From positions 24,563 to 88,562 of IMG/VR virus record IMGVR_UViG_3300032770_000015: a stretch of DNA of 64,000 bases. One strand, written 5' to 3'. Source of the DNA: a virus. The position numbers were made by a program, and so were the translations under genes. Each line of letters begins with the position of its first letter. The stretch's first letter is position 1. The notes beneath the pieces are model-generated. The model was not told the DNA's origin, ran no database searches, and was given only the letters and a program-made list of their open reading frames with translations. Shown piece by piece: positions 15,903-37,148 of this stretch.

Positions 15903-15917
15903 CCGACACCCCTTCGG

Positions 15918-18707: not shown

Positions 18708-18710
18708 ACG

Positions 18711-20163: not shown

Positions 20164-20175
20164 CGGTCTCTCCGG

Positions 20176-21816: not shown

Positions 21817-21820
21817 CGCC

Positions 21821-21976: not shown

Positions 21977-21977
21977 G

Positions 21978-22492: not shown

Positions 22493-22493
22493 C

Positions 22494-22983: not shown

Positions 22984-23333
22984 CAGCGGCCCCCGACGGC
23001 CTGCACGTCGCGCAGCAGATCGGCGCACGGGAGCTGCGCGATGAGCTCGTCGGCCGGGGTCATCTTCGAGCAGCTGAGGCGCGCCATCCCGCGGATCAGC
23101 GGGACGACGGCCTCGACGGCGGTGACGCGCAGCTCGAGCGCCTGGTGCATCTTGATCGTCAGCGTGTCCGTCTTCTGCATCTCTGACAGCGTGGTCGCGG
23201 TCGCCGCCGTCGTGCCGGAATAGAACCGGCCGAACGCGAAGCCCGTACCCAGCGTGCCGAGGACGAACGCCGCGGCGACCATGAGCCAGCGCGGGATCGA
23301 CACTGCTTCCCAGACCCGACCGGGGACAGCCAT
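22983..23333 (-). CDS. Membrane protein (TM plus coiled coil; possibly lysis-related)
   Basis: WLMVAAAFVLGTLGTGFAF TM followed by a helical region. Start uncertain. Confidence 0.45.
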   Translation of the reverse strand: MAVPGRVWEAVSIPRWLMVAAAFVLGTLGTGFAFGRFYSGTTAATATTLSEMQKTDTLTIKMHQALELRVTAVEAVVPLIRGMARLSCSKMTPADELIAQLPCADLLRDVQAVGGR

Positions 23334-23380
23334 CGAAAGCCTCTGCGTCGGCGCAAACGGATCAGCGCCAGGTTGAAAGT

Positions 23381-23716
23381 TCACACGTGCGCGAGCACCC
23401 GACCAACGATGATGAGCCCGACCCCGGCGGCGATCCCGCAGGCCGCCTGGCCCACGTCGCGCCAGGACCAACCGTTGGGGTCCACGTACCGCTCGTAGAG
23501 CACCCGCAGCGTGGCGGCGACCACGGCGACCACGGCGAGCCAGGTCCGGAACCCGACGAACCTAAGGCAGCGCGCGGCGACGAGCGGAACCGTGACGACG
23601 ACGACCGCCACGAGCAGCGTGGCGAATCCCGACAGGATCTCGACCAGCCACGGGTTCCACCCGTAGTAGAACGTGACCCGCCGCCAGGCGGCGCGCACGG
23701 CGTCGAGGAGGCTCAC
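23381..23716 (-). CDS. Multi-pass membrane protein (holin-like candidate)
   Basis: Three hydrophobic stretches. GTGA overlap at 23713-23716. Confidence 0.45.
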   Translation of the reverse strand: MSLLDAVRAAWRRVTFYYGWNPWLVEILSGFATLLVAVVVVTVPLVAARCLRFVGFRTWLAVVAVVAATLRVLYERYVDPNGWSWRDVGQAACGIAAGVGLIIVGRVLAHV

Positions 23717-23970
23717 GTGGCGCCCGGCGCGCCGGGGCGCGCGGCGAACGGGTCGTGAGTCACGTCGGCCAGGTCGGGCACGACGGAATAGCCCTTCGTG
23801 TACGCCGCCGCGGTCCCGGGCTCGCCGAGCGGGAACGCGGGCGTCCCGTAGGCCGTCGTGAGCCCGTGGTCGCCGTCCGGCCGGGCGTGCGCCGCGAGCG
23901 GCGCCTGGCGGTTGTGCGCCGTCCCGGCCGCGTCGTGGGCCTCGGGGTCGGGGTGGTTGCCGAACGCCAT
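23713..23970 (-). CDS. Small protein of MAFGNHPDP family
   Basis: MAFGNHPDPEAHDAAGTAHNRQ..., with GAGG RBS and TGATG overlap. Confidence 0.7.
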   Translation of the reverse strand: MAFGNHPDPEAHDAAGTAHNRQAPLAAHARPDGDHGLTTAYGTPAFPLGEPGTAAAYTKGYSVVPDLADVTHDPFAARPGAPGAT

Positions 23971-24230
23971 CAGACGTTCCTCCACGACCCACGCTCGAGG
24001 TAGCCGTGGACGCTCTCGTAGTTGTGGCCGCCGAGCAGGATCGAGGGCGCCACCGTGATCGTACCGTCCTCGTGCTCCGTGACCGTGTGCAGCGACAAGA
24101 TACCCGCCCCCGCACCGGGGAAGTAGATGAACCAGCCCTCGGGCGCCTTCCAATAGCAGACGCGCGCGTCGTCCACGCCGCTGAAGTTTGCGACGCGGAG
24201 CGCCGGGCCTGCCGGGGCGAGGAGCGCCAC
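23970..24230 (-). CDS. Hypothetical protein (DUF6527-like)
   Basis: HTVTEHEDGTITVAPSI...HGYLERGSW pattern. Confidence 0.5.
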   Translation of the reverse strand: MALLAPAGPALRVANFSGVDDARVCYWKAPEGWFIYFPGAGAGILSLHTVTEHEDGTITVAPSILLGGHNYESVHGYLERGSWRNV

Positions 24231-24777: not shown

Positions 24778-25074
24778 TCAGTTGTTCTTGTATCCGGGGA
24801 AGTCGGGCGTCGGCCGCGGCCCCTGGCCCGGCTTCAGCTTCGGGTCCGGGGGCGGGTTCATCAGCGCGGCGTCGGATTCGCGCGCCCCGGCGACGGCCAG
24901 GGCCTCGGACCCGGCGGTGGCGCCCGGCACCTTCACGTCGCGGACGGCGTGCGCGCCCGGGACGAGGCTGTGCGCCTCGGGCGACGTGTCGCTGTCGGGG
25001 GCGAGCCGCTGCAGGTTGTGCGCGAGCCCCGCGGCGTCGTGCGCCGCCGGGTCGGGATGGTTGGCGAAGGCCAT
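24778..25074 (-). CDS. Small protein of MAFGNHPDP family
   Basis: MAFANHPDPAAHDAAGLAHNLQ..., with GAGGA RBS. Confidence 0.7.
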   Translation of the reverse strand: MAFANHPDPAAHDAAGLAHNLQRLAPDSDTSPEAHSLVPGAHAVRDVKVPGATAGSEALAVAGARESDAALMNPPPDPKLKPGQGPRPTPDFPGYKNN

Positions 25075-25092
25075 GGGCTCAGGGTCCTCGGG

Positions 25093-25293
25093 TCAGACGG
25101 TGATCTGCCGCTTGCCGGTGCCGCCGTGCACGTCCACGGTGCCGATCTTTCCGGCCAGGGCCGACGTGACGGCCGCGGGCGAGGCGAACACCTGCGCGTC
25201 CTTGACGTTCTCGCAGTAGTCGAGCGATCCGTCCGCCCGGATCGCCCGAACGTACGAGATGGTCCCGGTGTGGGCAAACGCTACGTTGGCCAC
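25093..25293 (-). CDS. Hypothetical protein
   Basis: 66 aa with GGAGG RBS. Confidence 0.6.
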   Translation of the reverse strand: MANVAFAHTGTISYVRAIRADGSLDYCENVKDAQVFASPAAVTSALAGKIGTVDVHGGTGKRQITV

Positions 25294-25308
25294 GGTCGTG
25301 CCTCCGCG

Positions 25309-25548
25309 TTACTCGGCGTCGCCGCCGGTCGTCGGGGTGCCCCCGAGGTAATCGCCGCAGGGGTCGTTCGTGTTCGGGTCCGACGCGTGCGACGTGCCCT
25401 GCGCCAGCGTCAGGTGCTTCGCCGCCGAGGCGAACGCCGCGCCCGGAACGCCGTGCTTCTTCGGGTCGGTCGCGTCGCCCCGCGGGCGGGGCTGCAGGCG
25501 GTGCGCTACGCCCGCGTCGGCCGCCGGGGTCCGGTTGCCAAACGCCAT
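25309..25548 (-). CDS. Small protein of MAFGNHPDP family (divergent); first gene of the late operon
   Basis: MAFGNRTPAADAGVAHRLQ..., with GAGG RBS. Confidence 0.65.
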   Translation of the reverse strand: MAFGNRTPAADAGVAHRLQPRPRGDATDPKKHGVPGAAFASAAKHLTLAQGTSHASDPNTNDPCGDYLGGTPTTGGDAE

Positions 25549-26023
25549 GGGGATACGCCTCAGATCGTTGCAGTAGGATTTTGCTACCGGGTTCAATCTA
25601 CGCTGGCCGCGCGGCCGCAGCGGTCTTCCGGGCCGGGTCGGACGCCCCAGCGCCGCAGGCGCCCACTTCGGTATCACGATACCGGGTCGGGGAACGGCGG
25701 GGGCGGGACCAGGGACCACGGGTCTACATGGTGTCGGCAAACCGGATTCCCGACCGGGGCGGTACCCTACGGGGTACCCCCGGCGGAAACGGTTGCCGCG
25801 GGATGCGTCTACGCGTGGAATCGAGACGTTTTCGTCACGTTAAGCACGTCTACCTGCATGGAGTTCTTGCCGTAGCCGCCGCCGGGCCGGAGCCGCCGGG
25901 GGGCGACGGCGTGCGGTCACTACGACGTGCGTAGACGCGCGGGGGCCACGCCTGGCGGCCGATCCGGGGCGCGGGCAGGCCGGGGCGTAGGTCCGTGGTC
26001 GTTCGCCCCGCGTACGTGAACCT

Positions 26024-28675
26024 CGTAACCCGTTCGGGCGCCGAGCGTTACATCGACTTAACGGTTCGGGAACCGTTCGGTCCGGGCGCCGGATGATTCC
26101 CGGTCGCACCTGATACCGGGTTGACGTAACGCGCGAACGTACGCCCGTAAAGCGTTACGGCGTAACGGGTTACAGAAACGACTGCATATAATATACGTTA
26201 CGTTAAGTAAGCCCGAATAGGCCGCAAGTGGCGTCGCGGCGCGGGTTTACGGCGTCGGCGCCCGGTCGCGGCGTGTTACGGGTTCGGCGCCCGATGACCT
26301 AGGACCACGCGGCGGCGCCGAAACCGGCCGACCCCGGCGCGGCGCGGTTCGCGCGCGGATCGTGACCAGGCGGCCTAGCGGCGGCGTCGTACCGTGACGC
26401 GTGCGACGTTCACGCAGACGACCCGATCCGGCGCTCTTCCGGGCGACCGGGCGGGCGCGCGGCGTCTCACACGTCTACGGGGGCGTCGTGTTTCAAGACG
26501 CAAGGCTGGGCAGAGTGGGCCAAAGCATCTTCCCGACCGCGAACCGGTCGAAGGGGCCTATAAGTGAAAGTCCTTCGTAGGGTCTTCGGCGTTATTGGGG
26601 CGATTCGCCCCACAACGTCGGCATTCCGCGGCACTGCGGCGATTCGCGACAGATGGCTATCGCATAATGCGTCACTGCGGCATTCTGCGACACGACTGTA
26701 AAGATTCACGACAGTGGGGCATTTCGCCCATGCAGCAATCGCATTTTGCGGCACTGTCGCCATAGCGCTCCGCTGCCGATCCGGCCGACCCGACCCGGGG
26801 CGTCGCCGACCGGGCGGCGCGGCCGCAAGCCTCTCCCATGTCCACGGGCGCGTCGAACCCGCCGGGCGGGGCGTACCCCGTAGGGGTACGACCCCTGGCC
26901 CGTACGGGTACGACCGACGCGCGCCCGAACCGTTAACCTATTCCCGATCCTATTCCCGTGGCGCGTCGCCGACCGCGTAACCCCGTGGTCCCTGGAGCTT
27001 TGCGCCGCGTCCCGCGTCCCGCCGCGACCGTCGCCGATCCGGCGCGGCTGCAACCTATTCCCGGCGGTCGCGGGCGCCGTTAACGGTAGCGCGGCCGACG
27101 GCGCCCCGGCGCCGTTTCCGGGCAGGCGCAACCGTTCCGTGGCGCGGCGGCGCCGTTTCCGGCCGTCGTCGCCCCGGAACCCTCGGCGCCCGGCCGACTC
27201 CCGCGCTGCTCCGGCCTGCCGCCCGAACCCCGTCCCGTCGGCCCGCGTCGCGTGGCCCCGGAACTGGTCGCCGCCCCCGTCCGCGTAGACGTGCGGAGAA
27301 GCGTGATCCCGCCGCGCCCGGCCCGAACGTAAAGTGGTCCGTCGTCGTCGGTTACTCCGCCCCGGACCGGTCGCCCGACCGAACGCCCGGGCGTCGGGGT
27401 CGGCGCGCCGCTCGCGTGAACCTCGCACGTGACCCTGTCGTTACAGTATCGTTACACGTTCGTTACATCGGGTCGGCCGGTCGCGGCACGGTTTTCGCGC
27501 GCCGCCAGAAGTGTAATCGTTTTGTAACGGAGAAATTTCCGTGCCAGGCCCGGGATTCGCACGCCGCCGCGGAATGCGGCGATGTAACGATCCGATTACA
27601 AGGCGACGAACGGGCCGCCGTGGCACGGTTTTTTACGACCCTTGCCGGTGACCCGGAGAAGCGTGCCCCGCGCGCTGCGTGAAACCGGCGGAAAGCCAGG
27701 CGCGGCGCGGGTTTCCGCGATTCACGCCGGGTCGGTCGGGCGGACGGCCGCGCGGTCTTCCGTTCGCACGTCTACGCGGAACGTCGCACGAACGCCCCCG
27801 GAAGTGGCGTCGCGGCGCCGTTTCCGGCACCCGGGCTCGTCGGTTTCGACCCCCGGCACGTCGCGGGGCCGGACCGGGCGTCGCGCCGGGGCGGAATGTA
27901 ACGATCCGGTTACATTCGGCCGGTCGGCGCCGCGTTGGCACGATTTTTCAAACGTGCTACGATGACCCGTACGCCCCGACCCGTCGCGGAACCGGTTTGT
28001 CGGTAAACCCGCGCCGCGTAACGGGTTACGCTACGTCGCCGGGGCGCGGCCGTATCCCGATAACCCCCACCCCCCGGCAAACGGGTCGTAACCCCGTACG
28101 CCGTAACGGTTTACGACCGGTCGCGAAGACGGCCCCCGTTTCCACGTCTACGGTCATCCTCGCACGCCGCATTTCGCCGGGGATCGGACCCGTCGGGTAT
28201 GGCCCGCCGCCCGATTCCCGACCTCGGCGCCCGGCGTTCGCCCGACCGGACCGGGCGCACGACCCCGGCCGACGCCCGCCCGGCGTCGCCGCCGCCCCGG
28301 GGCGGCCCGATCCGGCGGGGGCGCGGGTCCCGGGCAGCCCAGGTCGGAATTCGCGCGTTTATAGGAGAGGTCGTAACCGCGTACGCCGTAACGGTTTACG
28401 GGTGTGATCTCAAGGCCCCCGCCGCCGCGCCCCCGGGCGCCGAACGGCGCAAAACGGTCCCAAACGGCCGATCCGGAGGTGACACGTTTGCACGCGCGCG
28501 GAAGCGTCGTAACCCCGTGGGAATACGGAAGTTACGGCGTTTTCGTCGTGCGCCCATTTTTCCGGTCGCGCCGGACCGTCCAAAATGCCCCGGTTTCGGG
28601 ACCGCCCCCGCCGACCCGGTAGAATCGCGCGTATACTAGCACGACCCGTAACCCGTTACGCCGTCGCGCTTTACG
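26024..28675. repeat. Dispersed 29-bp imperfect palindromes CGTAA-N19-TTACG (about 9 copies)
   Basis: Copies at 26024-26052, 26146-26174, 26223-26251, 26976-27004, 28002-28030, 28087-28115, 28372-28400, 28508-28536, 28647-28675. Confidence 0.8.
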
Positions 28676-28695
28676 GATGTAATCGGATCGTTACA
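27583..28695. promoter_or_regulatory. Three 18-bp operator-like palindromes TGTAA-N8-TTACA
   Basis: 27583-27600 TGTAACGATCCGATTACA, 27897-27914 TGTAACGATCCGGTTACA, and 28678-28695, which is the exact reverse complement of the first. Confidence 0.65.
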
Positions 28696-29213
28696 CATCT
28701 ACGGCGACGGCGGCCCGGGATTCGCTACGTTTTCGGGTCGCGGACCCCGGAACGCGGCGCGACGCCGTACCGACCGGGAAAACCGCCGGGGGAACCGCCG
28801 GGCCCAGCGCGCCGCGACGATACCGGGAAGGCGAAGCCGGAACCCCCGAACGAACGAACCCGCGCGACGGACGACGGCGCGGGTCGGGTGAACGAAGCAC
28901 CGACGGGGATGGTCGGATTAACCGGAACCCCCGCCGCCGGACCCCCGACCCGTACTGGGGCGACACCGCCCCCATCGTCCGACTGGTCGTCGCGGGCCGC
29001 CCGCCCGGCGCGCCGGAACATCGGCCGCGAACCCGGGGCGAACGGGCGGGGGTTTTCCGCCGGGGGCCGTTCCCCGAACGCGGACGCGACCCGCCACCGT
29101 TCCAGCGCACGTCGTCCCGCCGGGGCGTCGAATCCCCGGCAGGACATTCGCAGAAACCCCGCCGACCGGTCCGGCCGCGCGGGGCGTATCCCCGAACCGA
29201 AAGGAACCGACCC

Positions 29214-29429
29214 GTGGTCCCGATCCGCCTCACGCTCGACCCGCTGGGCGCCGGGTACGTCGAACTCGTCGCCGTCGTGCATGACGCGACGTACGACGCC
29301 GACGTGCGCCGGACGATCCGCGTCTCGCTCGAATCCTTCGGCCCGTCGGCGACCGTCGTTGCCCTGCGGGACGCGAAAGGGAACCTGGTCACGGCCGCCG
29401 ACTGGGCGCTCTTCCCGTCGGTCGCATAA
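29214..29429 (+). CDS. Early hypothetical protein
   Basis: 71 aa with AAAGGA RBS, bounded by family A motifs. Confidence 0.7.
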   Translation: MVPIRLTLDPLGAGYVELVAVVHDATYDADVRRTIRVSLESFGPSATVVALRDAKGNLVTAADWALFPSVA

Positions 29430-29534
29430 CCCGTCGCCGCCCGGCGTCGAATCCGGGCGGCGTCATACGAACCGAACGCCCGCGCCGGACCGGCGCTGGG
29501 CGAGCCGAAACCCGAACCGAAAGGGACCGTCCGA

Positions 29535-29849
29535 ATGAAGCCCGTGAATCCCGCCTGCGCCGACGATACGTCGCTGGCCGGGTACGTCGACACGACGTAC
29601 GCCGCGCTCGTCGCTGCCTTCGGTCCGCCGAACGGCCGGAGCGACGGATACAAGGTGGACGCCTGCTGGGTCCTGGCCGCCGGTGGGCGGATCGTAACCG
29701 TGTACAACTGGAAGGACGGCCCCGCGTACCGGGGCGCGGCCGGTACGCCGGTCGAGGCGATAACGACGTGGCACATCGGGGCGCACTTCGCCCCGGCGGC
29801 GCTCGCCGCGATGCGGCGCGCGTTCCCCGGCCGCGTTTCGGCCGCGTGA
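29535..29849 (+). CDS. Early hypothetical protein
   Basis: 104 aa. TSLAGYV.TTYA.LV.AFG.P..DG.KVD..W...TVYNWK...WHIG pattern seen in small phage proteins. Confidence 0.75.
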   Translation: MKPVNPACADDTSLAGYVDTTYAALVAAFGPPNGRSDGYKVDACWVLAAGGRIVTVYNWKDGPAYRGAAGTPVEAITTWHIGAHFAPAALAAMRRAFPGRVSAA

Positions 29850-30112
29850 CGAACCCGACGGCCCCGGGCTTCGAAACTCGGGGCCGCCTTACGATCCGAA
29901 CCGCCCGCGCCGGACCGGCGCCGGGCGGCGCTGCGTTGGGCACCGGGCCACCGGCCCGGCACGCGACCAGATGCCCCGGGGGTTGGATTCGCCCGGCGGT
30001 CGCCGCCCGCCCGACGCCCGGGGGCTTCGAAACCCCCGCGCGTCATCGCTGAACGTCGCCGGGCCGGACGGCCGGGCGACCCCGTACCCGCCGGACGAAA
30101 GGAACCGTACCC

Positions 30113-30271
30113 GTGGCCCCGCACGCGAACGAAGACCGGATCATCGCACAGCTCGACCGGGACGCCGTCTACCACGTCGCCGACCGCCTCGCGTTCCGCG
30201 TCGCCGACGACGCCGCGATGGCCCGCGCCCTGCGGCCGTACGTCGCCCGCTGCACCGCCGTTACGTTCTGA
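30113..30271 (+). CDS. Early hypothetical protein (52 aa)
   Basis: Own translation MAPHANEDRIIAQLDRD..., with AAAGGA RBS. Confidence 0.6.
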   Translation: MAPHANEDRIIAQLDRDAVYHVADRLAFRVADDAAMARALRPYVARCTAVTF

Positions 30272-30466
30272 ACCCGTCGCCGCCCGGCGTCGAACCCGGG
30301 CGGCGCCTTACGATCCGAACGCCCGCGCCGGACCGGCGCTGGGCGAATTCTTCCCCGATCCGAACCCGCACGACCAGAAAGGGACCGACCCGATGACCTC
30401 GACCCCGATGGACGAGCTGGCCGCCCTGCTCGTTCGCATCCAGCGCCGTCGTCCGGCGCCCGCCCG

Positions 30467-30757
30467 ATGAACCCCGCCGTCGTCGCCATCGTCGTCGCGG
30501 CCGTCCAGGACGCGCCGACCCCGTACCGCCTGGCCGACCGCATGGCCGCCCAGCGCGCCATCGTCGCCGCCGTCGCGCCGTACTTCGGCGGCGACCAGCT
30601 CGCCGCGTCGCTCGCGGTCGCCCCGGCGTACGCCGCCGCCGTCGAGCGCATTGCGGCGGTCCGGCGGAACCGGATCACCGGCCTGTCGTCGTCGCTCCCG
30701 GCCGGGGTCGTCATCGGCGACCGCGCCGTGCCGATCTCCGCCGTCGCGGGTGACTGA
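30467..30757 (+). CDS. Early hypothetical protein (preceded by 25-aa ORF 30393-30470)
   Basis: 96 aa, ATGA coupling. Confidence 0.6.
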   Translation: MNPAVVAIVVAAVQDAPTPYRLADRMAAQRAIVAAVAPYFGGDQLAASLAVAPAYAAAVERIAAVRRNRITGLSSSLPAGVVIGDRAVPISAVAGD

Positions 30758-30883
30758 ACCTACCGACGAGGCGTGACCCGCCCCGCGTCGCCCGGGGGCT
30801 TCGAAACCCCCGGGCGTCGTTCGCTCCGAACGTCCGCGCCGGACCGGCGCTGGGCGAGTTCTTCCCCGAACCGAAAGGGACGT

Positions 30884-31261
30884 ATGGAACACGACGCGCG
30901 GCACCTCTTCGAAGACCGGTACGGCGACGGTCACCCCTCGACGCGCTACCACGCGCGGCTGATCATCGCCGGGGCCGAGAACGGCCTCGCCGGATACGGC
31001 GTCGTCGTCATCCCGGCCGGATCGTCGGCCCGGCAGGTCCAGGGCGGGCCGCTCGTCCCTGGCCCGTGGGCCGCGACCTTCGGGCTCTGCACCGTCATCG
31101 ACAACGCGGGCGGAACCGGCGCCGAGGTCGCGCGCGAAACCGCCCGGGGCGACGCCATCCGCGTCGCGGCGGGCGATACCGTCCGCCTGACCGACGCCGT
31201 GACGGTCCGCGTTACCATCGGGCGGCGCGAGTACCCGGACCTGACCGTGGTGGACCGGTAG
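30884..31261 (+). CDS. Early hypothetical protein
   Basis: ATG at 30884 after AAAGGGA. Confidence 0.7.
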   Translation: MEHDARHLFEDRYGDGHPSTRYHARLIIAGAENGLAGYGVVVIPAGSSARQVQGGPLVPGPWAATFGLCTVIDNAGGTGAEVARETARGDAIRVAAGDTVRLTDAVTVRVTIGRREYPDLTVVDR

Positions 31262-31362
31262 GGCCGCCGGGCGGGGGCTTCGAAACCCCCGCCCGTCATC
31301 GCTGACCGACGGACGCCGGACCGGCGGGCCGTCCCTATTCCCCGATCCGAAAGGACGAGCTG

Positions 31363-32034
31363 ATGAAGCGCTACCAGATCATCACGGCGAACCGCGCCAC
31401 GAGGTCGCAGGCGGGGTACGCGCAGACGGAATCGTCAACCCTGGAGCTGGGCGAGTCCCTGTTCGTCACCGCCGAGAAGGCCGTCCCGCGCGGCGCCGGG
31501 GTCGAGGTCGAGCTGTTCGACACGGTCAAGAACAAGGTCCTGCGGTCCCGGTACTTCCCGACGCTCGACGAGGCGCGGGCGTCCGTCGCCCGGCGGCTCG
31601 CGAAGCACGTCGAGAGCGAGGTCGAGGCGGCCGAGGCGTCGCTGGCGAAGTTCACCGCCGAGATCAACCGTAACGTGGCGTCGCTCCGCGCCTGGGCCGT
31701 GGCCCGTGCGAACGGCGCCGACCTGACCGACTGGCGGGGCGGGAACACCGACGTGGAGTCGCCGTTCCGCTGGGCCGACGACTCGGTGGCCGCCGCCGCC
31801 CGCCTGATGGTCGCCCGCGAGGTCGAGGAATATCTGGCGACCGACCGCGCGCCGTCGGCCATCGTCGCCGCGCTGCGGACCCAGGTGCTGCGGTCGGCCC
31901 GGAACGGGCTGTCGCGGTCCACGTCGTCGTCGGCGAACCTGACCGAGGAGGCCCGCCTCGCCGCGCGGGCCGCGATGGTCGAGAAGCTCGAAACCATCGT
32001 CGCGTGGGCGACCGACATGGGCGTCGAGGTCTGA
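31363..32034 (+). CDS. Early hypothetical protein
   Basis: 223 aa with AAAGGA RBS. Confidence 0.75.
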   Translation: MKRYQIITANRATRSQAGYAQTESSTLELGESLFVTAEKAVPRGAGVEVELFDTVKNKVLRSRYFPTLDEARASVARRLAKHVESEVEAAEASLAKFTAEINRNVASLRAWAVARANGADLTDWRGGNTDVESPFRWADDSVAAAARLMVAREVEEYLATDRAPSAIVAALRTQVLRSARNGLSRSTSSSANLTEEARLAARAAMVEKLETIVAWATDMGVEV

Positions 32035-32037
32035 ACC

Positions 32038-32100
32038 GCCGAGGGGCGGGCGCCGACGAACCGGCGCCCGTTAAGGCACGGCCCGGTCCCAAGTCCGGGC
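32038..32100 (+). ncRNA. Twister ribozyme 1 (P5-like permutation); predicted cleavage U32072/A32073
   Basis: GCC-GAGGG-[P1 hairpin]-UAA-GGC-AC-..-GCCCGG-UCCCAAGU-CCGGGC. Confidence 0.88.
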
Positions 32101-32195
32101 GGAACGCAGGACGCCGCGCCAGGTATGGTGCCGGGTAAGCGTCCGTGCCGAACCCCATCACTTGAGGTGACATATGCGGTAGACCCCCGGGTAAC

Positions 32196-32272
32196 GCCGA
32201 GGGCGACGATCCGCCGGGCCGTACGCGCGCCCCGGGTCGTCGTAAGGCGCATGGCCGGTCCCAAGCCCGGCC
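32196..32272 (+). ncRNA. Twister ribozyme 2; predicted cleavage U32243/A32244
   Basis: GCC-GAGGG-CGACGAUCCG...CGGGUCGUCG-UAA-GGC-GC-..-GGCCGG-UCCCAAGC-CCGGCC. Confidence 0.88.
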
Positions 32273-32297
32273 GAACCCGAACGAAAGGAACGACCCG

Positions 32298-32672
32298 ATG
32301 TCGCTTCGCTGGCAGATGTCGAACGAGCAGAGCCCCGCGTGGGTGAACCTGTCGCCCGTGATGCGGGAGACCATGATCTTCGGCCTGGTCATCGCCGATA
32401 TGGGCGAGATCAAGGACGAGGCCGCCGCCGAGAAGTTCTGGACCCGGCTCCGGATGGCCGAGCTGGCGCAGGGCGACTCGTTCGTCCACCAGACCCCGGC
32501 GGGCGACGGCCCGATGATCCAGCGTTGGATCACCCTGGCCGACTGCCGGGCGGCCATCGGGCTCGGCGCGAACGTGCGGACGACGACGGACGCGCAGTAC
32601 AATCGGAAGGTCGCCGGTATCCTGCGCGACACGGCCGTCGCCGAGCTGCGGCGGGCGAAGGACGCAAAGTAG
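32298..32672 (+). CDS. Early hypothetical protein
   Basis: 124 aa with AAAGGA RBS, flanked by twisters 2 and 3. Confidence 0.75.
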   Translation: MSLRWQMSNEQSPAWVNLSPVMRETMIFGLVIADMGEIKDEAAAEKFWTRLRMAELAQGDSFVHQTPAGDGPMIQRWITLADCRAAIGLGANVRTTTDAQYNRKVAGILRDTAVAELRRAKDAK

Positions 32673-32735
32673 CCGAGGGGCGGGCGCCGATCCGTCGGCG
32701 CCCGTTAAGGCGCACGGCCGGTCCCAAGCCCGGCC
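32672..32735 (+). ncRNA. Twister ribozyme 3; predicted cleavage U32706/A32707
   Basis: Full core. First G is the last base of the TAG stop codon. Confidence 0.88.
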
Positions 32736-32760
32736 GAACCCCAAATGGAAAGGATGCCGG

Positions 32761-33249
32761 ATGAACTACGCGAACGTGCTAGGCGAGGCGAAGGGCAAGT
32801 TTGGCGCGTGGACCGCCTGGTATGTGCTGGGCGAGGCCGCCACCGGGTACGCGGTCCGCGCGCAGTTGGCGCCCGACCTGACGGTGAACCCGTTCACGGA
32901 CACGGACATCTACGGCGCGGTCAAGGAGATGAACAGCACGCAGCGCCCGGCCGGGTTCGACGGCGCAGCGCGGAAGATCCACACGCCCCGGTCGGTGTAC
33001 TGGTGGCAGCCGCCGTCGGATACGCGCGACGCGGCGGTCATCGCGTCCATCGCCGAGCGCGTGCGGCGGTTCCTGAACGACGACTGGTCGTATGTCGGCC
33101 TGCTCGTCGAGGTCCGGCACCCGCCCTGCACGCTGTGCGGCGAATCGCGGGTCACGTCGGCCGGGCTCTGGGGCATCGAGTCGGACAGCGACGACGGGTA
33201 CGTGATCGAGACGCTAGGCGACCTCGTGAACGAGGCGAAGGACGAGTAA
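32761..33249 (+). CDS. Early hypothetical protein
   Basis: 162 aa. DWSYVGL.V...AGLWGIESD motif. Flanked by twisters 3 and 4. Confidence 0.75.
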   Translation: MNYANVLGEAKGKFGAWTAWYVLGEAATGYAVRAQLAPDLTVNPFTDTDIYGAVKEMNSTQRPAGFDGAARKIHTPRSVYWWQPPSDTRDAAVIASIAERVRRFLNDDWSYVGLLVEVRHPPCTLCGESRVTSAGLWGIESDSDDGYVIETLGDLVNEAKDE

Positions 33250-33250
33250 C

Positions 33251-33313
33251 GCCGAGGGCGACCGCCGCGCGGTTCCGGCGGTCGTAAGGCACGGCCCGGT
33301 CCCAAGTCCGGGC
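33251..33313 (+). ncRNA. Twister ribozyme 4; predicted cleavage U33285/A33286
   Basis: Full core with P1 CGACCGCCG/CGGCGGUCG and T2 AC:GU. Confidence 0.88.
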
Positions 33314-33337
33314 GACCCCATCAACGAAAGGACGTGT

Positions 33338-33538
33338 ATGGCGCTCGTGATGCTGCCCCGTACCGACGACCTGCCGCCGGTGTACGTGAACCCGGCGCAC
33401 GTCGTCGGCGTCGAACCGTCGGTGACCGACCCCGGCGCGCCGGTCTGCACCGTGTACGTGCTCCCCGGGAACCGGGGCCACTTCGTCGCCCTGTCGGCGC
33501 TCGAGGCCGCCCGCCGCCTGAACGGGGGTGCCGCGTGA
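33338..33538 (+). CDS. Early hypothetical protein
   Basis: 66 aa with AAAGGA RBS. Confidence 0.65.
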   Translation: MALVMLPRTDDLPPVYVNPAHVVGVEPSVTDPGAPVCTVYVLPGNRGHFVALSALEAARRLNGGAA

Positions 33539-33915
33539 GGACGAAGCTGAACGCCCTGTTCAAGGCGCTGCGCCAGGCGGGCGTCGCGGCGCACCAGAAC
33601 TACGAGTGCTGCCAGGGGTGCGGCTGCGCCCGCGTCGCGTCCGAGATCGGCGTCGTCGGCGCGTACGTCTTCTATCACCACCAGGACGCCGAAGACCTCG
33701 AGCCCCCGCGCCATCACCGTGCGGGCGACGGCTGGCGGCCCGGCGTCTACCTGGCGTACGGGATCGTGTCGGCCGTGGAGCTGCCGGACGCGGTGGAAGA
33801 GGCCCTGCGGCTGAAGGTGGGCGAGCTGATCCGGAGGCTCGCCACCGTGGTCGGGCTCGCCGTCGAGTGGGACGGGACGACCGCGCAGCGCATCTGGGTC
33901 ACGGAGGCCGCGTGA
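33535..33915 (+). CDS. Hypothetical protein (DUF6891-like)
   Basis: LNALFKALRQAGV.A.QNYECCQGCG...YVFYHHQD...GL.VEWDG....RI pattern. Confidence 0.6.
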   Translation: MRTKLNALFKALRQAGVAAHQNYECCQGCGCARVASEIGVVGAYVFYHHQDAEDLEPPRHHRAGDGWRPGVYLAYGIVSAVELPDAVEEALRLKVGELIRRLATVVGLAVEWDGTTAQRIWVTEAA

Positions 33916-34238
33916 TCGACACCCTCGAGCCGTCGCCGCGCCGCGAGCCCACGCGGCAGATGTTCATCGTTCCGAACGACCCCGCCGGGCGGGCGGTCAT
34001 CGCCACTCTGCGCGCATACCTGAACCGGGCGACCTACCGCCTGCGGGTCGTCGGCCGGGGCGTCCGCGCCGACCGCGCCCGCGAGTTCCGCCGCACGCAC
34101 CGGGCCTGGGCGACCCGGCGCCCCGACTACGCCTGGATTCCGCGCCGGTACGCGACCCGCCTGGCCGTGTACATCGAGCGCAAGGACGGGATCGGGATCA
34201 ACTGGCAGCAGCTCCGCACGCTGTACCCCGTCCGTTAG
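33912..34238 (+). CDS. Early hypothetical basic protein
   Basis: GTGA coupling. Ends at twister 5. Confidence 0.65.
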   Translation: MIDTLEPSPRREPTRQMFIVPNDPAGRAVIATLRAYLNRATYRLRVVGRGVRADRAREFRRTHRAWATRRPDYAWIPRRYATRLAVYIERKDGIGINWQQLRTLYPVR

Positions 34239-34302
34239 CCGAGGGGCGGGCGCCGATCCGTCGGCGCCCGTTAAGGCGCACCGCCGGTCCCAAGTCCGGC
34301 GG
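34238..34302 (+). ncRNA. Twister ribozyme 5; predicted cleavage U34272/A34273
   Basis: Full core, T2 GC:GU. Confidence 0.88.
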
Positions 34303-34328
34303 AACCCACTGGAGAAAGGCTGGGCGAG

Positions 34329-34670
34329 ATGTCCGACGTGCAGATCACGAAGGTTCACGCCGTCGAGTGGCACCGCAACGGCGTCGGCGGGCTCGGGTTC
34401 CACGTCGTCCTGTTTGACGAGGCTACGGAGGGGCGGATGATGGCCGTGGACTTCGGCCCCGAGGCCGACGCGGCGACGGATTCCTTCGGGGTCATCGCGG
34501 TCTTCCAGCTCGACAAGCTAGCGGCCGGTGACGTGGCCTTCGGGTCGAACTCGTGGCGCGGCGACCACTACACCGGGCCAGTCCGGGCGGTCATCACGGC
34601 GGCCGAGGCGCGGGGCGAGACCGGGAAGCTCGGGCCGTTCTCGCTGCCGCCGCAGCTTCGCCGGAAGTAG
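34329..34670 (+). CDS. Early hypothetical protein
   Basis: 113 aa. WHRNGVGG..FHVV.F and NSWRGDHY motifs. Flanked by twisters 5 and 6. Confidence 0.75.
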   Translation: MSDVQITKVHAVEWHRNGVGGLGFHVVLFDEATEGRMMAVDFGPEADAATDSFGVIAVFQLDKLAAGDVAFGSNSWRGDHYTGPVRAVITAAEARGETGKLGPFSLPPQLRRK

Positions 34671-34730
34671 CCGAGGGGCGGGCGCCGATGGATCGGCGCC
34701 CGTTAAGGCACGGCCCGGTCCCAAGTCCGG
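34670..34730 (+). ncRNA. Twister ribozyme 6; predicted cleavage U34704/A34705
   Basis: Full core, T2 AC:GU. Confidence 0.87.
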
Positions 34731-34757
34731 CGACCCATCTCAAAGGAGGCAGCCGGT

Positions 34758-35072
34758 ATGAGCGCACGCGTCTTCGTCTGGCCCGAGCGGACCTACGAGG
34801 AGCTGGGCGCCGAACGCTGGGCCGTGTCCTGGAAGACCGTGCGGCCCGGCGCCAACGTAAATGAGGAGATCGACTTCGACGTCGACCTCGTGGACCGCGC
34901 CGTCGCCTGCCGGACCCACGCGGCGGCGGTTGCCCGCGCGCGGCGCGCCGCCGCCGAGGACTACTTCGGCGGGGCGGTCGTTCAGCGCCAGGTCGTCGCG
35001 TGGGACGTCGAGGAGGACCGCATCGCCGAGTGGGCCCCCGCTGGTGAACCCGAATATGTGGAGGACCGATGA
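34758..35072 (+). CDS. Early hypothetical protein
   Basis: 104 aa with AAAGGAGG RBS. Confidence 0.7.
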   Translation: MSARVFVWPERTYEELGAERWAVSWKTVRPGANVNEEIDFDVDLVDRAVACRTHAAAVARARRAAAEDYFGGAVVQRQVVAWDVEEDRIAEWAPAGEPEYVEDR

Positions 35073-35428
35073 GACCGCGCACGTCGATCATCGTCGCCCT
35101 TCGGCCCGGCCGAACCCAGGCCGCGGCCGACCGCCGCGAGCGGATGGAGACCATCATCCTGGCCGAGGCCCGCGCCCGGGGCGTCCGGTATGACGGGTCG
35201 GGGAACTACGTCACGGGGCCGCGGCGCGGGACGCGCGAGCTTTTCTTCGTGACGCGCCGGCGCGACCTGACCGTCGCCGCCGTCCGCGACCTGAAGGCCG
35301 ACGTCCGCGAGGCGGAGCACTTCGCCTACCGGACGTACTTCATCACCCGGGACTATGGGACCGGCGCCTGGCTCGTGAACCGCGGCGGCCGGACCGTCGC
35401 CGCCGCCGCCCGGGCGCTGGTCCGTTAG
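35069..35428 (+). CDS. Early hypothetical basic protein
   Basis: 119 aa, ATGA coupling. Confidence 0.65.
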   Translation: MRPRTSIIVALRPGRTQAAADRRERMETIILAEARARGVRYDGSGNYVTGPRRGTRELFFVTRRRDLTVAAVRDLKADVREAEHFAYRTYFITRDYGTGAWLVNRGGRTVAAAARALVR

Positions 35429-35551
35429 CCGAGGGGCGGGTGCCCGTCCGCGATGCGCCGCTGGGTCGAGCCGGGTTCCGACCGGCGCCAGCACGCGGTC
35501 TCGCACGACGTGGTACCCGTTAAGGCGCACCGCCGGTCCCAAGCCCGGCGG
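35428..35551 (+). ncRNA. Twister ribozyme 7 with extended P1; predicted cleavage U35521/A35522
   Basis: P1 base GCGGGUGCC/GGUACCCGU encloses an insert of about 65 nt. Core intact. Confidence 0.83.
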
Positions 35552-35578
35552 AACCCCACTAGAGAAAGGCTGGGCGAG

Positions 35579-35938
35579 ATGGATGAGCGGCAGGCATCGC
35601 GTGAGGCAGCCGAGGACGTGCGGTACGAGCGCTGGGAGGCGCTATTGTTCAAGCACGTGCCCGGCCTGACGCGCGGGAAGAATCCGGCGTGGCGGTCCGA
35701 CTTGATGATGGAGGCCGATGGCGGCCCGATCTTCATGAAGTTCATGTCGGACGGTGGCGTGGATGACACGCCGAACGGTCTGGCGCTGCGGGCCTGGCTC
35801 CGGGCGCGGAAGATTCCGTTCCGGCAGTATGGGCTGAAGGAGGACCCCGGCCAGGTGCGGGTCTTCACGCTGTCGCGGCGGGCGTTCGCCCGGGTCGAGG
35901 CCATTCTGCGCGGGCTCGAGCGCCGCGCGGCGCGGTAA
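35579..35938 (+). CDS. Early hypothetical protein
   Basis: ATG at 35579 after AGAAAGG. Confidence 0.7.
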   Translation: MDERQASREAAEDVRYERWEALLFKHVPGLTRGKNPAWRSDLMMEADGGPIFMKFMSDGGVDDTPNGLALRAWLRARKIPFRQYGLKEDPGQVRVFTLSRRAFARVEAILRGLERRAAR

Positions 35939-35970
35939 GCCGAGGGCTGCTGGTGCTAAAGGTCGCAAGG

Positions 35971-36035
35971 GCCGAGGGACGGGCGCCCCGATCCGGGCGC
36001 CCGTTAAGGCGCGCCGCCGGTCCCAAGTCCGGCGG
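35971..36035 (+). ncRNA. Twister ribozyme 8; predicted cleavage U36005/A36006
   Basis: P1 ACGGGCGCCC/GGGCGCCCGU. Full core. Confidence 0.88.
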
Positions 36036-36056
36036 AACCCCGAACGAAAGGACCGT

Positions 36057-36389
36057 ATGATCACGACGAAGCGGCTGATCTTCCACCTCGACGCGGCCAT
36101 CGCGCGGCACGTCCGCGACTGGCAGCGCCTGACCGAGCACGGCACGATTGCCGTCGACTCGGACGTGATAGCGCTGTACGCGCAGGACATGGCCGCGCTA
36201 ATGCGGGCGCGGTCGGCGTTCTGCCACGCCAGGTTGGTCGAGGAGCACAGCACGTGGGACACGGCGACCGTCGCCCGGCTGCTGCGCCGGGGCGCGCGCA
36301 TCTTGCGCGACCGCGACACGGCGGTCACCGACCACTTTCCCCGCCCGCTCGTCCTGGCGGTCGGGTCGCTGGTCGGCGACGGCGCGTGA
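36057..36389 (+). CDS. Early hypothetical protein
   Basis: 110 aa with AAAGGA RBS. Confidence 0.65.
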   Translation: MITTKRLIFHLDAAIARHVRDWQRLTEHGTIAVDSDVIALYAQDMAALMRARSAFCHARLVEEHSTWDTATVARLLRRGARILRDRDTAVTDHFPRPLVLAVGSLVGDGA

Positions 36390-36634
36390 TCAACACGCAG
36401 CGCGCCCGCGCCGCGCTTAACCGGCTCATCGCGGCGGCCGACGACACGGCCGTTGACCAGGCGTTCCTCGACCGCTTCCTGCGCCGTGCACCGACGTATG
36501 CGAATGCGTGCGAGGCCTGCGGGAAGCAGGTCGCCACCACCACCATCCTGGGCCACGGGTACTGCGCCCACTGCGGGAACGTCGCGCTCGAGGTCATCGA
36601 GGCCCGGCGCGCCCGCCGAAAGGAGACCGCGTGA
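36386..36634 (+). CDS. Small zinc-finger protein
   Basis: CEAC...CAHC. GTGA coupling. Confidence 0.6.
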   Translation: MINTQRARAALNRLIAAADDTAVDQAFLDRFLRRAPTYANACEACGKQVATTTILGHGYCAHCGNVALEVIEARRARRKETA

Positions 36635-37056
36635 AGAAGGTCCGCCACCGGACGACCCGCGCCACGCTGCTGGTCGTTGACCGCCTGAACCTGACCGACC
36701 TGCCCGGAAAGGATCTCGCCGGGGCCGACCTCGCCGAGGAGGACCTGGGCGCGACGAACCTGCGCGCCGCCAGCCTGCGCGGCGCCGACCTCCACGGGGC
36801 GTGGCTGCGCCGGACGAACCTGAACGACGCCGACCTCCACGCGGCCGACCTGCGCGGCGTGGACGCGCAGGGCGCGGACCTGCAGCGCGCGAACCTCTCG
36901 AACGCCGACCTCACCGGGGCTGACCTGCAGGGCGCCGACCTGCGCGGGGCAAACTTCGCCGGGGCGTGCTTGACCGACGCCGACCTGCGCGGCGCGAACC
37001 TGCGCGGCGTCGCCGTGACGGTCGGCAACCGCACCATCCTGACGTCCAACGCCTAA
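36631..37056 (+). CDS. Pentapeptide repeat protein
   Basis: About 20 A(D/N)Lxx repeats. AAAGGAG RBS. Confidence 0.9.
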   Translation: MKKVRHRTTRATLLVVDRLNLTDLPGKDLAGADLAEEDLGATNLRAASLRGADLHGAWLRRTNLNDADLHAADLRGVDAQGADLQRANLSNADLTGADLQGADLRGANFAGACLTDADLRGANLRGVAVTVGNRTILTSNA

Positions 37057-37118
37057 CGCAGAGGAGGGCCGGGACCGATCCCCGGCCCTAATGCGGCGGC
37101 CCGGTTCCAAGCCCGGGC
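37057..37118 (+). ncRNA. Twister ribozyme 9 (divergent, covarying); predicted cleavage U37089/A37090
   Basis: CGCA-GAGGA-[P1]-UAA-UGCG-GC-.-GCCCGG-UUCCAAGC-CCGGGC. Compensatory changes in P2 and T1. Confidence 0.9.
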
Positions 37119-37148
37119 GACGTTCACCCCCGAAACGAGGGAGCGCTG

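What the first reader, a model, noticed from the sequence alone, without database searches (positions are those of the whole stretch)
29114..31333. Second, unrecognised intergenic RNA-like motif (7 copies) in the same positions as the twisters: candidate new ribozyme or processing element
Seen: the first seven spacer elements of the early operon share (i) a GC-rich hairpin with stems that differ but stay paired (GCCGCCCGG/CCGGGCGGC, CGCCCGGGGG/CCCCCGGGCG, GGCCCCGGG/CTCGGGGCC) around a conserved 8-nt loop C(U/G)UCGAA(A/U/C), resembling a tRNA T-loop; (ii) a 12-14 nt linker containing U(A/U)CG or AUCG followed by GA(A/C); (iii) a bulged hairpin with a conserved CCGG(A/U)C(C)GG apex; and then usually CCGAAAGG(G)A and the start codon. 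The family stops exactly where the twisters begin (32038), so the two occupy equivalent slots. I cannot match it to hammerhead, pistol, HDV-like, twister-sister or hatchet cores. Established: several ribozyme classes were discovered as motifs in the same gene contexts as twister and hammerhead. Inference: a new self-cleaving class, a tRNA-mimic site for RNase P/Z/III, an antitermination element, or a DNA-level protein-binding repeat.
Basis: partly seen in the sequence, partly recalled or inferred. Interest (0 to 1): 0.85.

Follow-up and report, generated by a model that had tools for sequence, protein, structure and literature searches.

The report
Two-hairpin RNA punctuation motif in phage
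Seven copies of an uncatalogued two-hairpin RNA element sit in front of the first early genes of an uncultured phage, in the slots that self-cutting twister RNAs fill further along the same operon, so they probably mark where the long message is cut or protected, though no cutting has been shown.

Summary
Seven + strand copies (cores 29112-31338) score 64-90 bits with a model built from them. The next + strand hit in the 88.6-kb genome scores 24.5 bits.

Each copy has two hairpins. H1 has 12 rungs with exactly one mismatch and a conserved apex, C-K-UCGAA-H. A 10-14 nt linker follows. H2 is bulged, with apex CCGG(A/U)C(C)GG. Pairing is 96.9% of cells, 13 of 23 pairs change on both sides, and 0 of 500 shuffles reach this.

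No Rfam family matches at E<=10 beyond noise. There is no U-tract terminator, sigma-70 promoter or tRNA. The "T-loop" reading is weak: GGTTCRANYCC fits 0 of 7, and loop positions 2 and 8 covary as a pair.

The cassette has the same layout as the neighbouring twister-P5 cassettes. In H1 the apex is conserved and the stem varies; in twister P1 it is the reverse.

My best reading, at about 40%, is a recognition site for a trans-acting RNA-cutting or RNA-binding factor that does the job the twisters do. A new ribozyme is not excluded (about 10%).

I found no copy outside this phage, but the searches were limited. By title, the scan noted a like-named two-hairpin family in another phage (e1-6048590). 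I did not check it, and it shares no sequence with this one.

The parts
29112..29188 (+). Copy 1, in the 5' leader of the first early gene (start codon GTG 29214). H1 29114-29145, H2 29157-29184.
   Evidence: R1 75.3 bits. H1 has 12 rungs with one mismatch at rung 8, apex CGUCGAAU. H2 apex is CCGGUCCGG. The distance from H2 to the start codon is 29 nt (coordinates).
29431..29507 (+). Copy 2, between the 71-aa gene (stop 29429) and the 104-aa gene (ATG 29535). H1 29433-29464, H2 29477-29502.
   Evidence: R1 86.1 bits. H1 starts 3 nt after the stop codon. One mismatch at rung 11.
29855..29932 (+). Copy 3, after the 104-aa gene (stop 29849). It is followed by about 80 nt without an RBS and then copy 4. 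H1 29857-29888, H2 29902-29927.
   Evidence: R1 81.3 bits. One G-U pair in H1. H1 starts 7 nt after the stop codon.
30011..30085 (+). Copy 4, upstream of the 52-aa gene (GTG 30113). H1 30013-30044, H2 30055-30080.
   Evidence: R1 64.3 bits. The H2 lower stem GUCGCC/GGCGAC differs from the majority but stays paired; apex CCGGACGG. H2 to start codon 32 nt.
30274..30350 (+). Copy 5, after the 52-aa gene (stop 30271) and upstream of the 25-aa/96-aa gene pair (ATG 30395). H1 30276-30307, H2 30320-30345.
   Evidence: R1 88.2 bits. The loop 2:8 pair is G-C. H1 starts 4 nt after the stop codon.
30785..30861 (+). Copy 6, after the 96-aa gene (stop 30757) and upstream of the 125-aa gene (ATG 30884). H1 30787-30818, H2 30831-30856.
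   Evidence: R1 90 bits. One U-G pair in the H2 lower stem. H2 to start codon 27 nt.
31264..31338 (+). Copy 7, after the 125-aa gene (stop 31261) and upstream of the 223-aa gene (ATG 31363). H1 31266-31297, H2 31308-31333.
   Evidence: R1 77.7 bits. The H2 lower stem GACGG/CCGUC differs from the majority but stays paired. H1 starts 4 nt after the stop codon; H2 to start codon 29 nt.
32038..37116 (+). Context only: an array of 8 Rfam-scored twister-P5 ribozymes filling the equivalent intergenic slots of the next genes.
   Evidence: RF02684, 47.2-56.5 bits against a gathering score of 37.6. The distance from twister end to start codon is 24-32 nt.

Best explanation
The element is an RNA-level punctuation cassette of the early polycistronic transcript. 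It is a protein-dependent counterpart of the twister-P5 cassettes that follow it. H1 is a stable hairpin (-21 to -25 kcal/mol) that starts 3-7 nt after the upstream stop codon in 4 of the 5 copies that follow a gene. A short linker, relatively A/U-rich, comes next. H2 sits 27-32 nt (49 nt in one copy) before the next start codon. I propose that a trans-acting factor reads the conserved H1 apex (bulged C, two pairs, CGA triloop) and the H2 apex. The factor is most likely an endoribonuclease of the host or the phage. It would cut in or next to the linker. The upstream message would then end in H1, which blocks 3' exonucleases, and the downstream message would begin just before H2, which shields its 5' end. 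Shown: the copies, their fold, their covariation, their positions, and the absence of a match to any Rfam family. Inferred: that the motif acts in RNA, that it is cut, where it is cut, and by what.
For: 1. The fold is real. Two hairpins are kept through compensatory changes. The two-hairpin fold is part of the minimum-energy fold in 6 of 7 copies.
2. All 7 copies share the orientation of the genes. They occupy only junctions or the leader of the first seven cistrons.
3. The layout matches the twister-P5 cassettes. MAFFT places H1 on twister P1 and the H2 apex CCGGACCGG on the twister P4 hairpin CCGG-UCCCAAGC-CCGG. The last hairpin lies 27-32 nt from the start codon in 5 of the 6 motif copies that precede a gene, and the twister end lies 24-32 nt from it in the 7 twisters that precede one. 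In twister-P5 the cleavage site follows P1 (recalled from the class description), which gives hairpin, cut, hairpin, RBS.
4. The conservation pattern is inverted. The H1 apex is nearly invariant while its stem has about 5 versions. The twister P1 loops differ in at least 6 of 8 copies, while five share the stem strand GGGCGCC. An apex under selection points to a reader (a factor or a tertiary contact), not a passive hairpin.
5. H1 keeps exactly 12 rungs and exactly one mismatch in 7 of 7 copies. No indel occurs in H1, whereas the linker and H2 do carry indels.
6. There is no U-tract terminator and no sigma-70-like promoter in 29100-31400. Transcription-level readings therefore lack their usual marks.
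7. Reviews propose that bacterial and phage ribozymes process polycistronic transcripts (PMC6765202, passages read).
Against: There are no RNA data. The only public run holding this DNA is the source wetland metagenome, so no transcript end is known. No copy was found outside this genome, so all covariation comes from paralogues. No nuclease or RNA-binding protein was recognised among the 68 window proteins scanned or the 7 early proteins. The 24.5 kb of the genome outside the window was not scanned for protein families. The host, and hence its RNase set, is unknown. G-U pairs (4 cells) barely outnumber A-C/C-A mismatches (2 cells), so the base pairs alone do not prove the + RNA strand. Copy 1 lies in a leader and copy 3 has no gene after it, which also fits a promoter or a recombination-cassette reading.
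Confidence: 0.4

Rival explanations
1. The motif is a new self-cleaving ribozyme class, or a twister-derived minimal form, that cuts in the linker or at the foot of H1.
For: It has the same slot and the same hairpin, linker, hairpin, RBS layout as 8 twisters in one operon. Three ribozyme classes were found by searching near known ribozymes (PMC6765202, passages read). The conserved unpaired nucleotides (bulged C, CGA, linker U/CG/GAAC, H2 internal loop G/CU) could make tertiary contacts. No Rfam family matches.
Against: There is no multi-helix junction. I could trace no pseudoknot or enclosing helix with consistent pairing across the 7 copies (direct reading). H1 and H2 fold independently, and H2 persists in 6 of 7 copies when the H1 5' strand is blocked. 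The twister T1/T2 partners (GAGGG, UCCCAAGC) are absent. The same review notes that other motifs found near ribozymes did not cleave.
Confidence: 0.1
2. H1 is a tRNA top-half mimic (acceptor stem plus T arm minihelix) that directs RNase P and/or RNase Z, as plant mitochondrial t-elements do.
For: H1 has exactly 12 rungs (7+5) in 7 of 7 copies. G-C at the base and GG/CC at the top are invariant. The next position pairs in only 1 of 7 copies. UUCGAA stands in the loop of 4 copies. An unpaired base followed by an invariant U comes after the helix. t-elements and even plain stem-loops are proposed RNase P/Z signals (PMC1920247, passages read). RNase Z cuts just after the discriminator base (PMC8549757, passages read). 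Earlier scan notes report minihelices between phage genes; I did not check them.
Against: The loop has 8 nt, not 7. GGTTCRANYCC fits 0 of 7 copies. Position '54' is G in 3 of 7. Loop positions 2 and 8 covary as a pair and positions 3 and 7 are always U-A, which gives a bulged C plus a CGA triloop, not a T-loop. There is no CCA. Rung 2 is mismatched in 5 of 7 copies. ARAGORN gives 0 genes, and no tRNA or tRNA-like Rfam hit appears at E<=10.
Confidence: 0.1
3. The motif is not a cut site. It is either a binding site for a regulatory RNA-binding protein (translational operator, antitermination or chaperone site), or simply a pair of passive exonuclease barriers and insulators between cistrons.
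For: A conserved apex on a variable stem, with a bulged base next to a small loop, is the usual look of a protein-binding hairpin. Phage coat-protein operators are an example (recalled). H1 begins 3-7 nt after the stop codon in 4 of 5 cases, so terminating ribosomes must melt it. Stable GC hairpins after genes are known mRNA stabilisers (recalled, REP-type elements).
Against: Passive barriers need no conserved apex or linker. A regulator that binds in front of seven unrelated small genes, but not in front of the twister-linked ones, has no obvious logic. No candidate protein was found.
Confidence: 0.17
4. The motif acts at the transcription level. H1 would be a terminator or attenuator lacking a U-tract, and the H2 region a promoter, giving a composite terminator-promoter cassette like the PeSLs of T4-type phages.
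For: The cassettes are repeats between small, mostly ORFan early genes, including one ahead of the first gene, as PeSLs are (PMC4122927, passages read; PMC2839356, listing only). H1 is a strong GC hairpin.
Against: No sigma-70-like promoter and no hairpin plus T-run occur in 29100-31400. Covariation in the H2 lower stem is not expected of a promoter spacer. The adjacent genes use ribozymes, which implies one long transcript that is processed. Seven terminators in series would silence the genes downstream.
Confidence: 0.12
5. The motif acts at the DNA level, as recombination joints for cassette shuffling or as a binding repeat for a DNA protein.
For: Direct repeats of about 75 nt at roughly 90% identity (copies 2 and 5) flank small genes. 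Copies 3 and 4 stand in tandem with no gene between them, as if a cassette had been lost. Logan contigs of the source run break at copies 2 and 5, though this may be no more than an effect of repeats on assembly.
Against: Arms that covary under a conserved loop fit a folded single strand, not a duplex binding site. All copies face one way, with asymmetric features (a 5' bulged C, the linker). No integrase or recombinase family appeared among the 68 proteins scanned.
Confidence: 0.06

Closest known systems
Twister-P5 ribozyme cassettes of the same operon (Rfam RF02684)
   Same: They fill the same intergenic slot, face the same way and have the same order: a GC hairpin right after the stop codon, a linker of 10-16 nt, a CCGG...CCGG hairpin, a C-rich stretch, a GAAAGGA-type RBS and a start codon about 24-32 nt on.
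   Different: The motif has no GAGGG/UCCCAAGC pseudoknot partners and no Rfam hit. Its H1 apex is conserved and its stem varies, the reverse of twister P1. Self-cleavage is unknown.
RNase III processing sites between the early genes of phage T7 (R0.3-R1.3). Recalled; no paper read here.
   Same: They are structured elements between the cistrons of a phage early polycistron that are cut by a host nuclease and leave a protective 3' hairpin.
   Different: T7 sites are single irregular hairpins of about two helical turns. Here there are two separate hairpins of at most 13 pairs each, too short for a classical RNase III site.
t-elements and tRNA-like minihelices as RNase P/Z signals (Forner et al. 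2007, PMC1920247)
   Same: H1 has 12 rungs, a UUCGAA-like loop, and a position at mRNA boundaries.
   Different: The T-loop consensus is not met in 0 of 7 copies, and the loop pairs internally. There is no cloverleaf remnant and no CCA.
PeSL promoter-terminator cassettes of T4-type phages (PMC4122927, PMC2839356)
   Same: They are repeated composite cassettes in the gaps between small, variable early genes.
   Different: PeSLs are defined by a sigma-70-type promoter plus a stem-loop. No such promoter is found here, and the second module is a covarying hairpin.
HK022 put RNA, a two-hairpin cis-acting antiterminator. Recalled; no paper read here.
   Same: Two adjacent hairpins in a nascent phage early transcript.
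   Different: put occurs once per operon just after the promoter, and its hairpins are nearly contiguous. Here seven copies are spread over every junction.

Membership tests
Twister ribozyme (RF02684, clan CL00120) | Score at or above the Rfam gathering threshold | tested here: not met
   No twister hit lies in 29100-31400 at gathering score or at E<=10. The same scans score the 8 neighbouring twisters at 47-56 bits.
Twister ribozyme (RF02684, clan CL00120) | T1/T2 pseudoknot strands (GAGGG 5' of P1; UCCCAAGC loop in P4) | tested here: not met
   In the alignment of 5 motif cassettes with 8 twister cassettes, the P4 loop is replaced by A(C) and the 5' flank reads CCCGUC.
Other self-cleaving classes in Rfam (hammerhead, pistol, hatchet, twister-sister, HDV-like, hairpin) | Any covariance-model match | tested here: not met
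   cmscan at E<=10 on 6 kb, and on two windows of 441 and 601 nt, lists only noise: miRNA and sRNA models at 8.8-23.5 bits, all far below their gathering scores.
tRNA-like minihelix / t-element | Helix of 12 base pairs (7 acceptor + 5 T stem) | tested here: met
   12 rungs in 7 of 7 copies, each with one mismatch. A 13th rung pairs in only 1 of 7.
tRNA-like minihelix / t-element | 7-nt T-loop, GGTTCRANYCC | tested here: not met
   The loop has 8 nt, and 0 of 7 copies fit the consensus. Loop positions 2:8 covary (UA 4, GU 2, GC 1) and 3:7 are always U-A. ARAGORN finds 0 genes.
tRNA-like minihelix / t-element | Cleavage by RNase P or RNase Z at the helix ends | not testable with these tools
   No RNA run holds this phage.
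Intrinsic terminator | GC hairpin followed by a T/U run | tested here: not met
   The only terminator-like site near the motif region (29221-29203) lies on the minus strand and rests on the complement of the A-rich RBS. There is none on the + strand in 29100-31400. H1 is followed by (A/U/G)U(A/U/C)CG.
PeSL (promoter-early stem-loop) | Sigma-70-type -35/-10 pair next to the stem-loop | tested here: not met
   0 promoter-like sites in 29100-31400; the two found in 25000-38000 lie at 27935 and 34414. The host's promoter type is unknown, so this is a weak test.
RNase III site (T7 type) | About two turns of irregular double helix | tested here: not met
   H1 has 11 pairs plus 2 apical pairs, and H2 has 5+5 pairs. 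No conserved helix joins them.

The most novel reading that the evidence does not exclude
The two-hairpin element is a new small self-cleaving ribozyme, possibly descended from the twister-P5 cassette. It would have swapped the double pseudoknot for contacts between the conserved H1 apex, the linker and the H2 internal loop, so that one phage operon carries two ribozyme classes doing the same job.
Probability: 0.09. Interest if true: 0.85.

Novelty: new variant of a known kind. Interest (0 to 1): 0.5.

Why it matters
Phage early operons are known or suspected to be cut into single-gene messages by host RNase III (T7) or by embedded ribozymes. Here one operon switches, gene by gene, from an uncatalogued two-hairpin element to twister ribozymes in the same slot. 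That is a natural experiment: whatever the twisters do for a message, this element very probably does by other means. Its strictly conserved hairpin tip says that something reads it. It could be a nuclease, a binding protein or the RNA itself. It would also give a compact, testable candidate for the question of what intergenic ribozymes are for. The limit is that the motif is so far private to one metagenomic phage with no cultured host.

Tried and rejected
Known families. Rfam at gathering score on the whole window and at E<=10 on 6 kb and two short windows gave nothing but noise in the motif region. ARAGORN found no tRNA.

Homologues elsewhere.
- blastn against 50,697 phage records gave no match.
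- I ran three IMG/VR patterns. TCGAA plus the H2 13-mer gave 67 stretches, best R1 score 28 bits. The fixed H1 frame gave 19 stretches, with at most 7 of 10 rungs paired. H1 apex plus H2 apex gave 12 stretches, with stems of at most 5 pairs. All are chance.
All 239 matches in them have H1 stems of at most 8 pairs with a mismatch allowed. These two scans are incomplete, so absence is not shown.
- R1 found nothing in 10 of 10 IMG/VR records whose terminase is 37-52% identical.
- R1 found nothing in 5 of 5 GC-rich bacterial genomes. Only 150 of about 10,000-24,000 first-look candidates were scored per genome, so this is a weak test.

Relatives of the phage. The 223-aa early protein has no relative. 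The primase-helicase and the DNA polymerase found no IMG/VR relative. The capsid found two short contigs. The best terminase relatives are at most 56% identical. The 104-aa protein has 5 homologues at 46-60% identity and the 125-aa protein has 307, but their contigs could not be fetched.

Expression. No RNA holder is listed for this DNA.

Logan contigs of the source run. The joints have short sides (20-30 nt, one of 54), which the tool warns are often repeats. I rejected them as evidence.

Bistable or attenuator fold. With the H1 5' strand blocked, no common alternative fold appears and H2 persists in 6 of 7 copies. Rejected.

Tertiary pairing. I tried, by reading the alignments, H1 loop with linker, H1 loop with H2 loop, and linker with the stretch downstream of H2. 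None is consistent across the 7 copies.

Stop-codon read-through into the next gene. The spacing is in frame in 3 of 5 junctions by my arithmetic on the coordinates, which is about what chance gives. Rejected.

A phage-encoded nuclease or RNA polymerase. None appears among 22 Pfam families from 68 proteins. PHROGs listed only the top 25 of 47 families. The genome's first 24.5 kb was not scanned.

Supplements of papers were not opened. The list of non-cleaving candidate motifs of Weinberg et al. 2015, which I know only through the review PMC6765202, may hold a similar motif that I could not see. Those that entered Rfam were covered.


Full report
WHAT THE WINDOW IS. The window is bases 24563-88562 of an 88,562-bp IMG/VR virus record that CheckV rates complete. 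It has 70% G+C. Its 127-bp terminal repeat may simply be an assembly overlap. It encodes a P22-type coat protein, a family A DNA polymerase, a primase-helicase, a portal, tail proteins and a nucleotide-modification cluster. Minus-strand late genes end near 25300. About 3.9 kb without genes follows. A + strand operon of small genes starts at 29214.

THE OBSERVATION.
- The loop word C[GT]TCGAA[ACT] flanked by inverted repeats occurs seven times on the + strand between 29126 and 31278.
- MAFFT aligns the seven units over about 110 nt at 65% mean column identity.
- A covariance model (R1) built from the 77-nt cores scores the seven at 64.3-90 bits with filters off. The next + strand hit in the window scores 24.5 bits.
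- The whole genome has no further copy.
Rfam calls eight twister-P5 ribozymes from 32038 to 37116.

ANATOMY.
- H1 has exactly 12 rungs in all seven copies. A G-C pair at the foot and GG/CC under the loop are invariant. Each copy has exactly one mismatch: rung 11 from the loop in five copies, rung 7 or 8 in the other two. A 13th rung would pair in only one copy.
- The 8-nt 'loop' C-K-U-C-G-A-A-H is not fully open. Positions 2 and 8 are U-A in four copies, G-U in two and G-C in one, and positions 3 and 7 are always U-A. I therefore read the apex as a bulged C, two pairs and a CGA triloop. RNAfold predicts this form for copy 5.
- A linker of 10-14 nt follows: one unpaired base, an invariant U, then (U/A)CG(C/A)(U/A)(CC)GA(A/C)C, with a 3-nt deletion in copies 4 and 7.
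- H2 has 5 pairs, a 1x2 internal loop, 5 pairs and a GAC (or GUC/GGAC) loop. Its apex is conserved. Its lower stem has four different, always complementary versions.
- H1 alone folds at -21 to -25 kcal/mol.

IS THE FOLD SUPPORTED?
- For the 23-pair structure, 96.9% of 161 cells pair. With partners slid by 1-3 columns the figure is 38-52%.
- 13 pairs change on both sides, and 0 of 500 column shuffles reach any measure.
- RNAalifold recovers the two hairpins on its own.
- Caveats: I wrote the structure from these same sequences. The seven are paralogues, with about five H1 stems and four H2 lower stems, so the independent events are few. I could not run R-scape.
- Whole-unit folding energies are not unusual for this G+C content (z from -0.6 to -3.0). 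The case therefore rests on covariation and conservation, not on energy.

WHAT IT IS NOT.
- No Rfam family matches. At E<=10 on 6 kb, and on windows of 441 and 601 nt, only miRNA and sRNA models appear, at 8.8-23.5 bits and far below their thresholds.
- It is not a tRNA.
- It is not a hairpin plus T-run terminator, and there is no sigma-70-type promoter in 29100-31400.
- It is not a twister. The strands that make pseudoknots T1 and T2 are missing.
- The T-loop likeness is shallow. The t-element search motif GGTTCRANYCC (PMC1920247, passages read) fits none of the seven copies, because a C is inserted after GG. Position 54 would be G in three copies. The 2:8 covariation has no place in a T-loop.
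- No conserved alternative fold links H1 and H2.

CONTEXT AND THE ARGUMENT FOR FUNCTION.
- Every copy sits in a junction or in the leader. Copy 1 lies ahead of the first gene. Copies 2, 5, 6 and 7 lie between genes. Copies 3 and 4 stand in tandem with no gene between them, just as twisters 1 and 2 do.
- H1 starts 3, 7, 4, 29 and 4 nt after the stop codon in copies 2, 3, 5, 6 and 7. H2 ends 29, 32, 32, 49, 27 and 29 nt before the start codon in copies 1, 2, 4, 5, 6 and 7. The twisters end 24-32 nt before theirs.
- In a joint alignment MAFFT puts H1 on twister P1 and CCGGACCGG on the twister's CCGG-UCCCAAGC-CCGG hairpin. Both cassette types then run into the same C-rich, GAAAGGA-type RBS region.
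- As I recall the class, twister-P5 cuts just after P1. That leaves a hairpin at the new 3' end and a small hairpin near the new 5' end. The two-hairpin element offers the same two hairpins around a single-stranded linker. That linker is the only comparatively A/U-rich unpaired stretch in the unit.
- Within this one phage the twister P1 loops have drifted apart, with at least six versions in eight copies, while five copies share the stem strand GGGCGCC. In H1 the stem has drifted and the apex has not. An apex held constant over five stem versions means that something reads it.
- From this I infer a trans-acting reader, most simply an endoribonuclease, that does what the ribozyme does for itself.
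- Reviews already propose that bacterial and phage ribozymes process polycistronic messages (PMC6765202, passages read). The same review notes that some motifs found beside ribozymes did not cleave.

WHAT I COULD NOT GET.
- I found no RNA data. The single public run holding this DNA is the wetland metagenome it probably came from. Its contigs merely break at the repeats.
- I found no relatives that carry the motif. The phage collection gave no match. Three complementary IMG/VR patterns gave chance hits only. Ten related IMG/VR records gave nothing.
- The phage is isolated. Its terminase has no relative above 56% identity among 5.8 billion proteins, and the 223-aa early protein has none at all.
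- Two motif-flanked proteins do have relatives.
- No nuclease, RNA-binding protein or RNA polymerase was recognised in 68 window proteins or the 7 early ones. The first 24.5 kb of the genome was not scanned.

EARLIER NOTES OF THIS SCAN.
- The twister array of this window was already followed up (e1-6121231). I re-scored it: 8 copies at the gathering threshold.
- By words, the scan also holds an unverified report of a seven-copy two-hairpin family in the twister slot of a different phage (e1-6048590), read there as a double-strand nuclease site. It holds several reports of tRNA-like minihelices between phage genes (for example e1-6020677).
- Neither a look-up by place nor one by sequence found any look-alike of the present stretch, so these are parallels, not the same element. 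I tested the minihelix lead here, and the T-loop criterion failed.

VERDICT. This is a real, uncatalogued, structured intergenic element. It very probably acts in the RNA and is positioned as a functional stand-in for twister ribozymes.
- Best mechanism, at about 0.4: a recognition and cleavage site for a protein nuclease, flanked by two protective hairpins.
- Not excluded: a protein-binding or passive stabiliser (0.17), a terminator-promoter cassette (0.12), an RNase P/Z minihelix (0.10), a new ribozyme (0.09-0.10), and a DNA-level role (0.06).
- The case is worth a bench test because the assay is cheap and the neighbouring twisters serve as a built-in positive control.
- The finding is limited to one uncultured phage.

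Noticed in passing
window 29933-30010: Copy 3 is followed not by an RBS and a gene but by about 80 nt holding another GC hairpin (CCGGGCC-ACC-GGCCCGG), and then directly by copy 4. Twisters 1 and 2 (32038-32098, 32196-32270) are likewise in tandem with no clear gene between them. This looks like cassettes that have lost their genes.
   Followed up: partly
window 30884-31258 and 29535-29846: Two of the motif-flanked small proteins are not ORFans. The 125-aa protein has 307 relatives at E<=0.001 among 1.84 billion representatives. The 104-aa protein has 5 relatives at 46-60% identity, one of them from a Tara ocean record. Neither has a Pfam family. The 223-aa protein has no relative.
   Followed up: partly
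window 32038-32743, and run X1: A 472-nt Logan contig of the source run carries twister-like ends matching 32686-32741 and 32038-32091, with 362 other letters between them. Contigs also break inside copies 2 and 5. This may be a repeat-induced assembly effect, another cassette of the same phage, or a population variant with a swapped cassette.
   Followed up: no
window 27923-27963: This is one of only two sigma-70-like sites in 25000-38000 (TTGGCA-17-TACGAT with TG). It overlaps a terminator-like hairpin plus T-run on the + strand, 1.15 kb upstream of copy 1, inside the 3.9-kb gene-free region. TAGAAT and TATACT words lie near 28620-28640. Where the early transcript starts is open.
   Followed up: no
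genome ends (G000:C1:1-127 and 88436-88562): The 'direct terminal repeat' is an exact 127-bp overlap, a length typical of an assembler k-mer. It may show a circular or permuted assembly, not physical ends.
   Followed up: no
window 29427-30886: In 3 of 5 junctions (copies 2, 5 and 6) the upstream stop codon and the next start codon are in the same frame. I checked only the copy-2 junction by eye and saw no stop between. By my arithmetic this is about chance expectation in 70% G+C DNA.
   Followed up: partly
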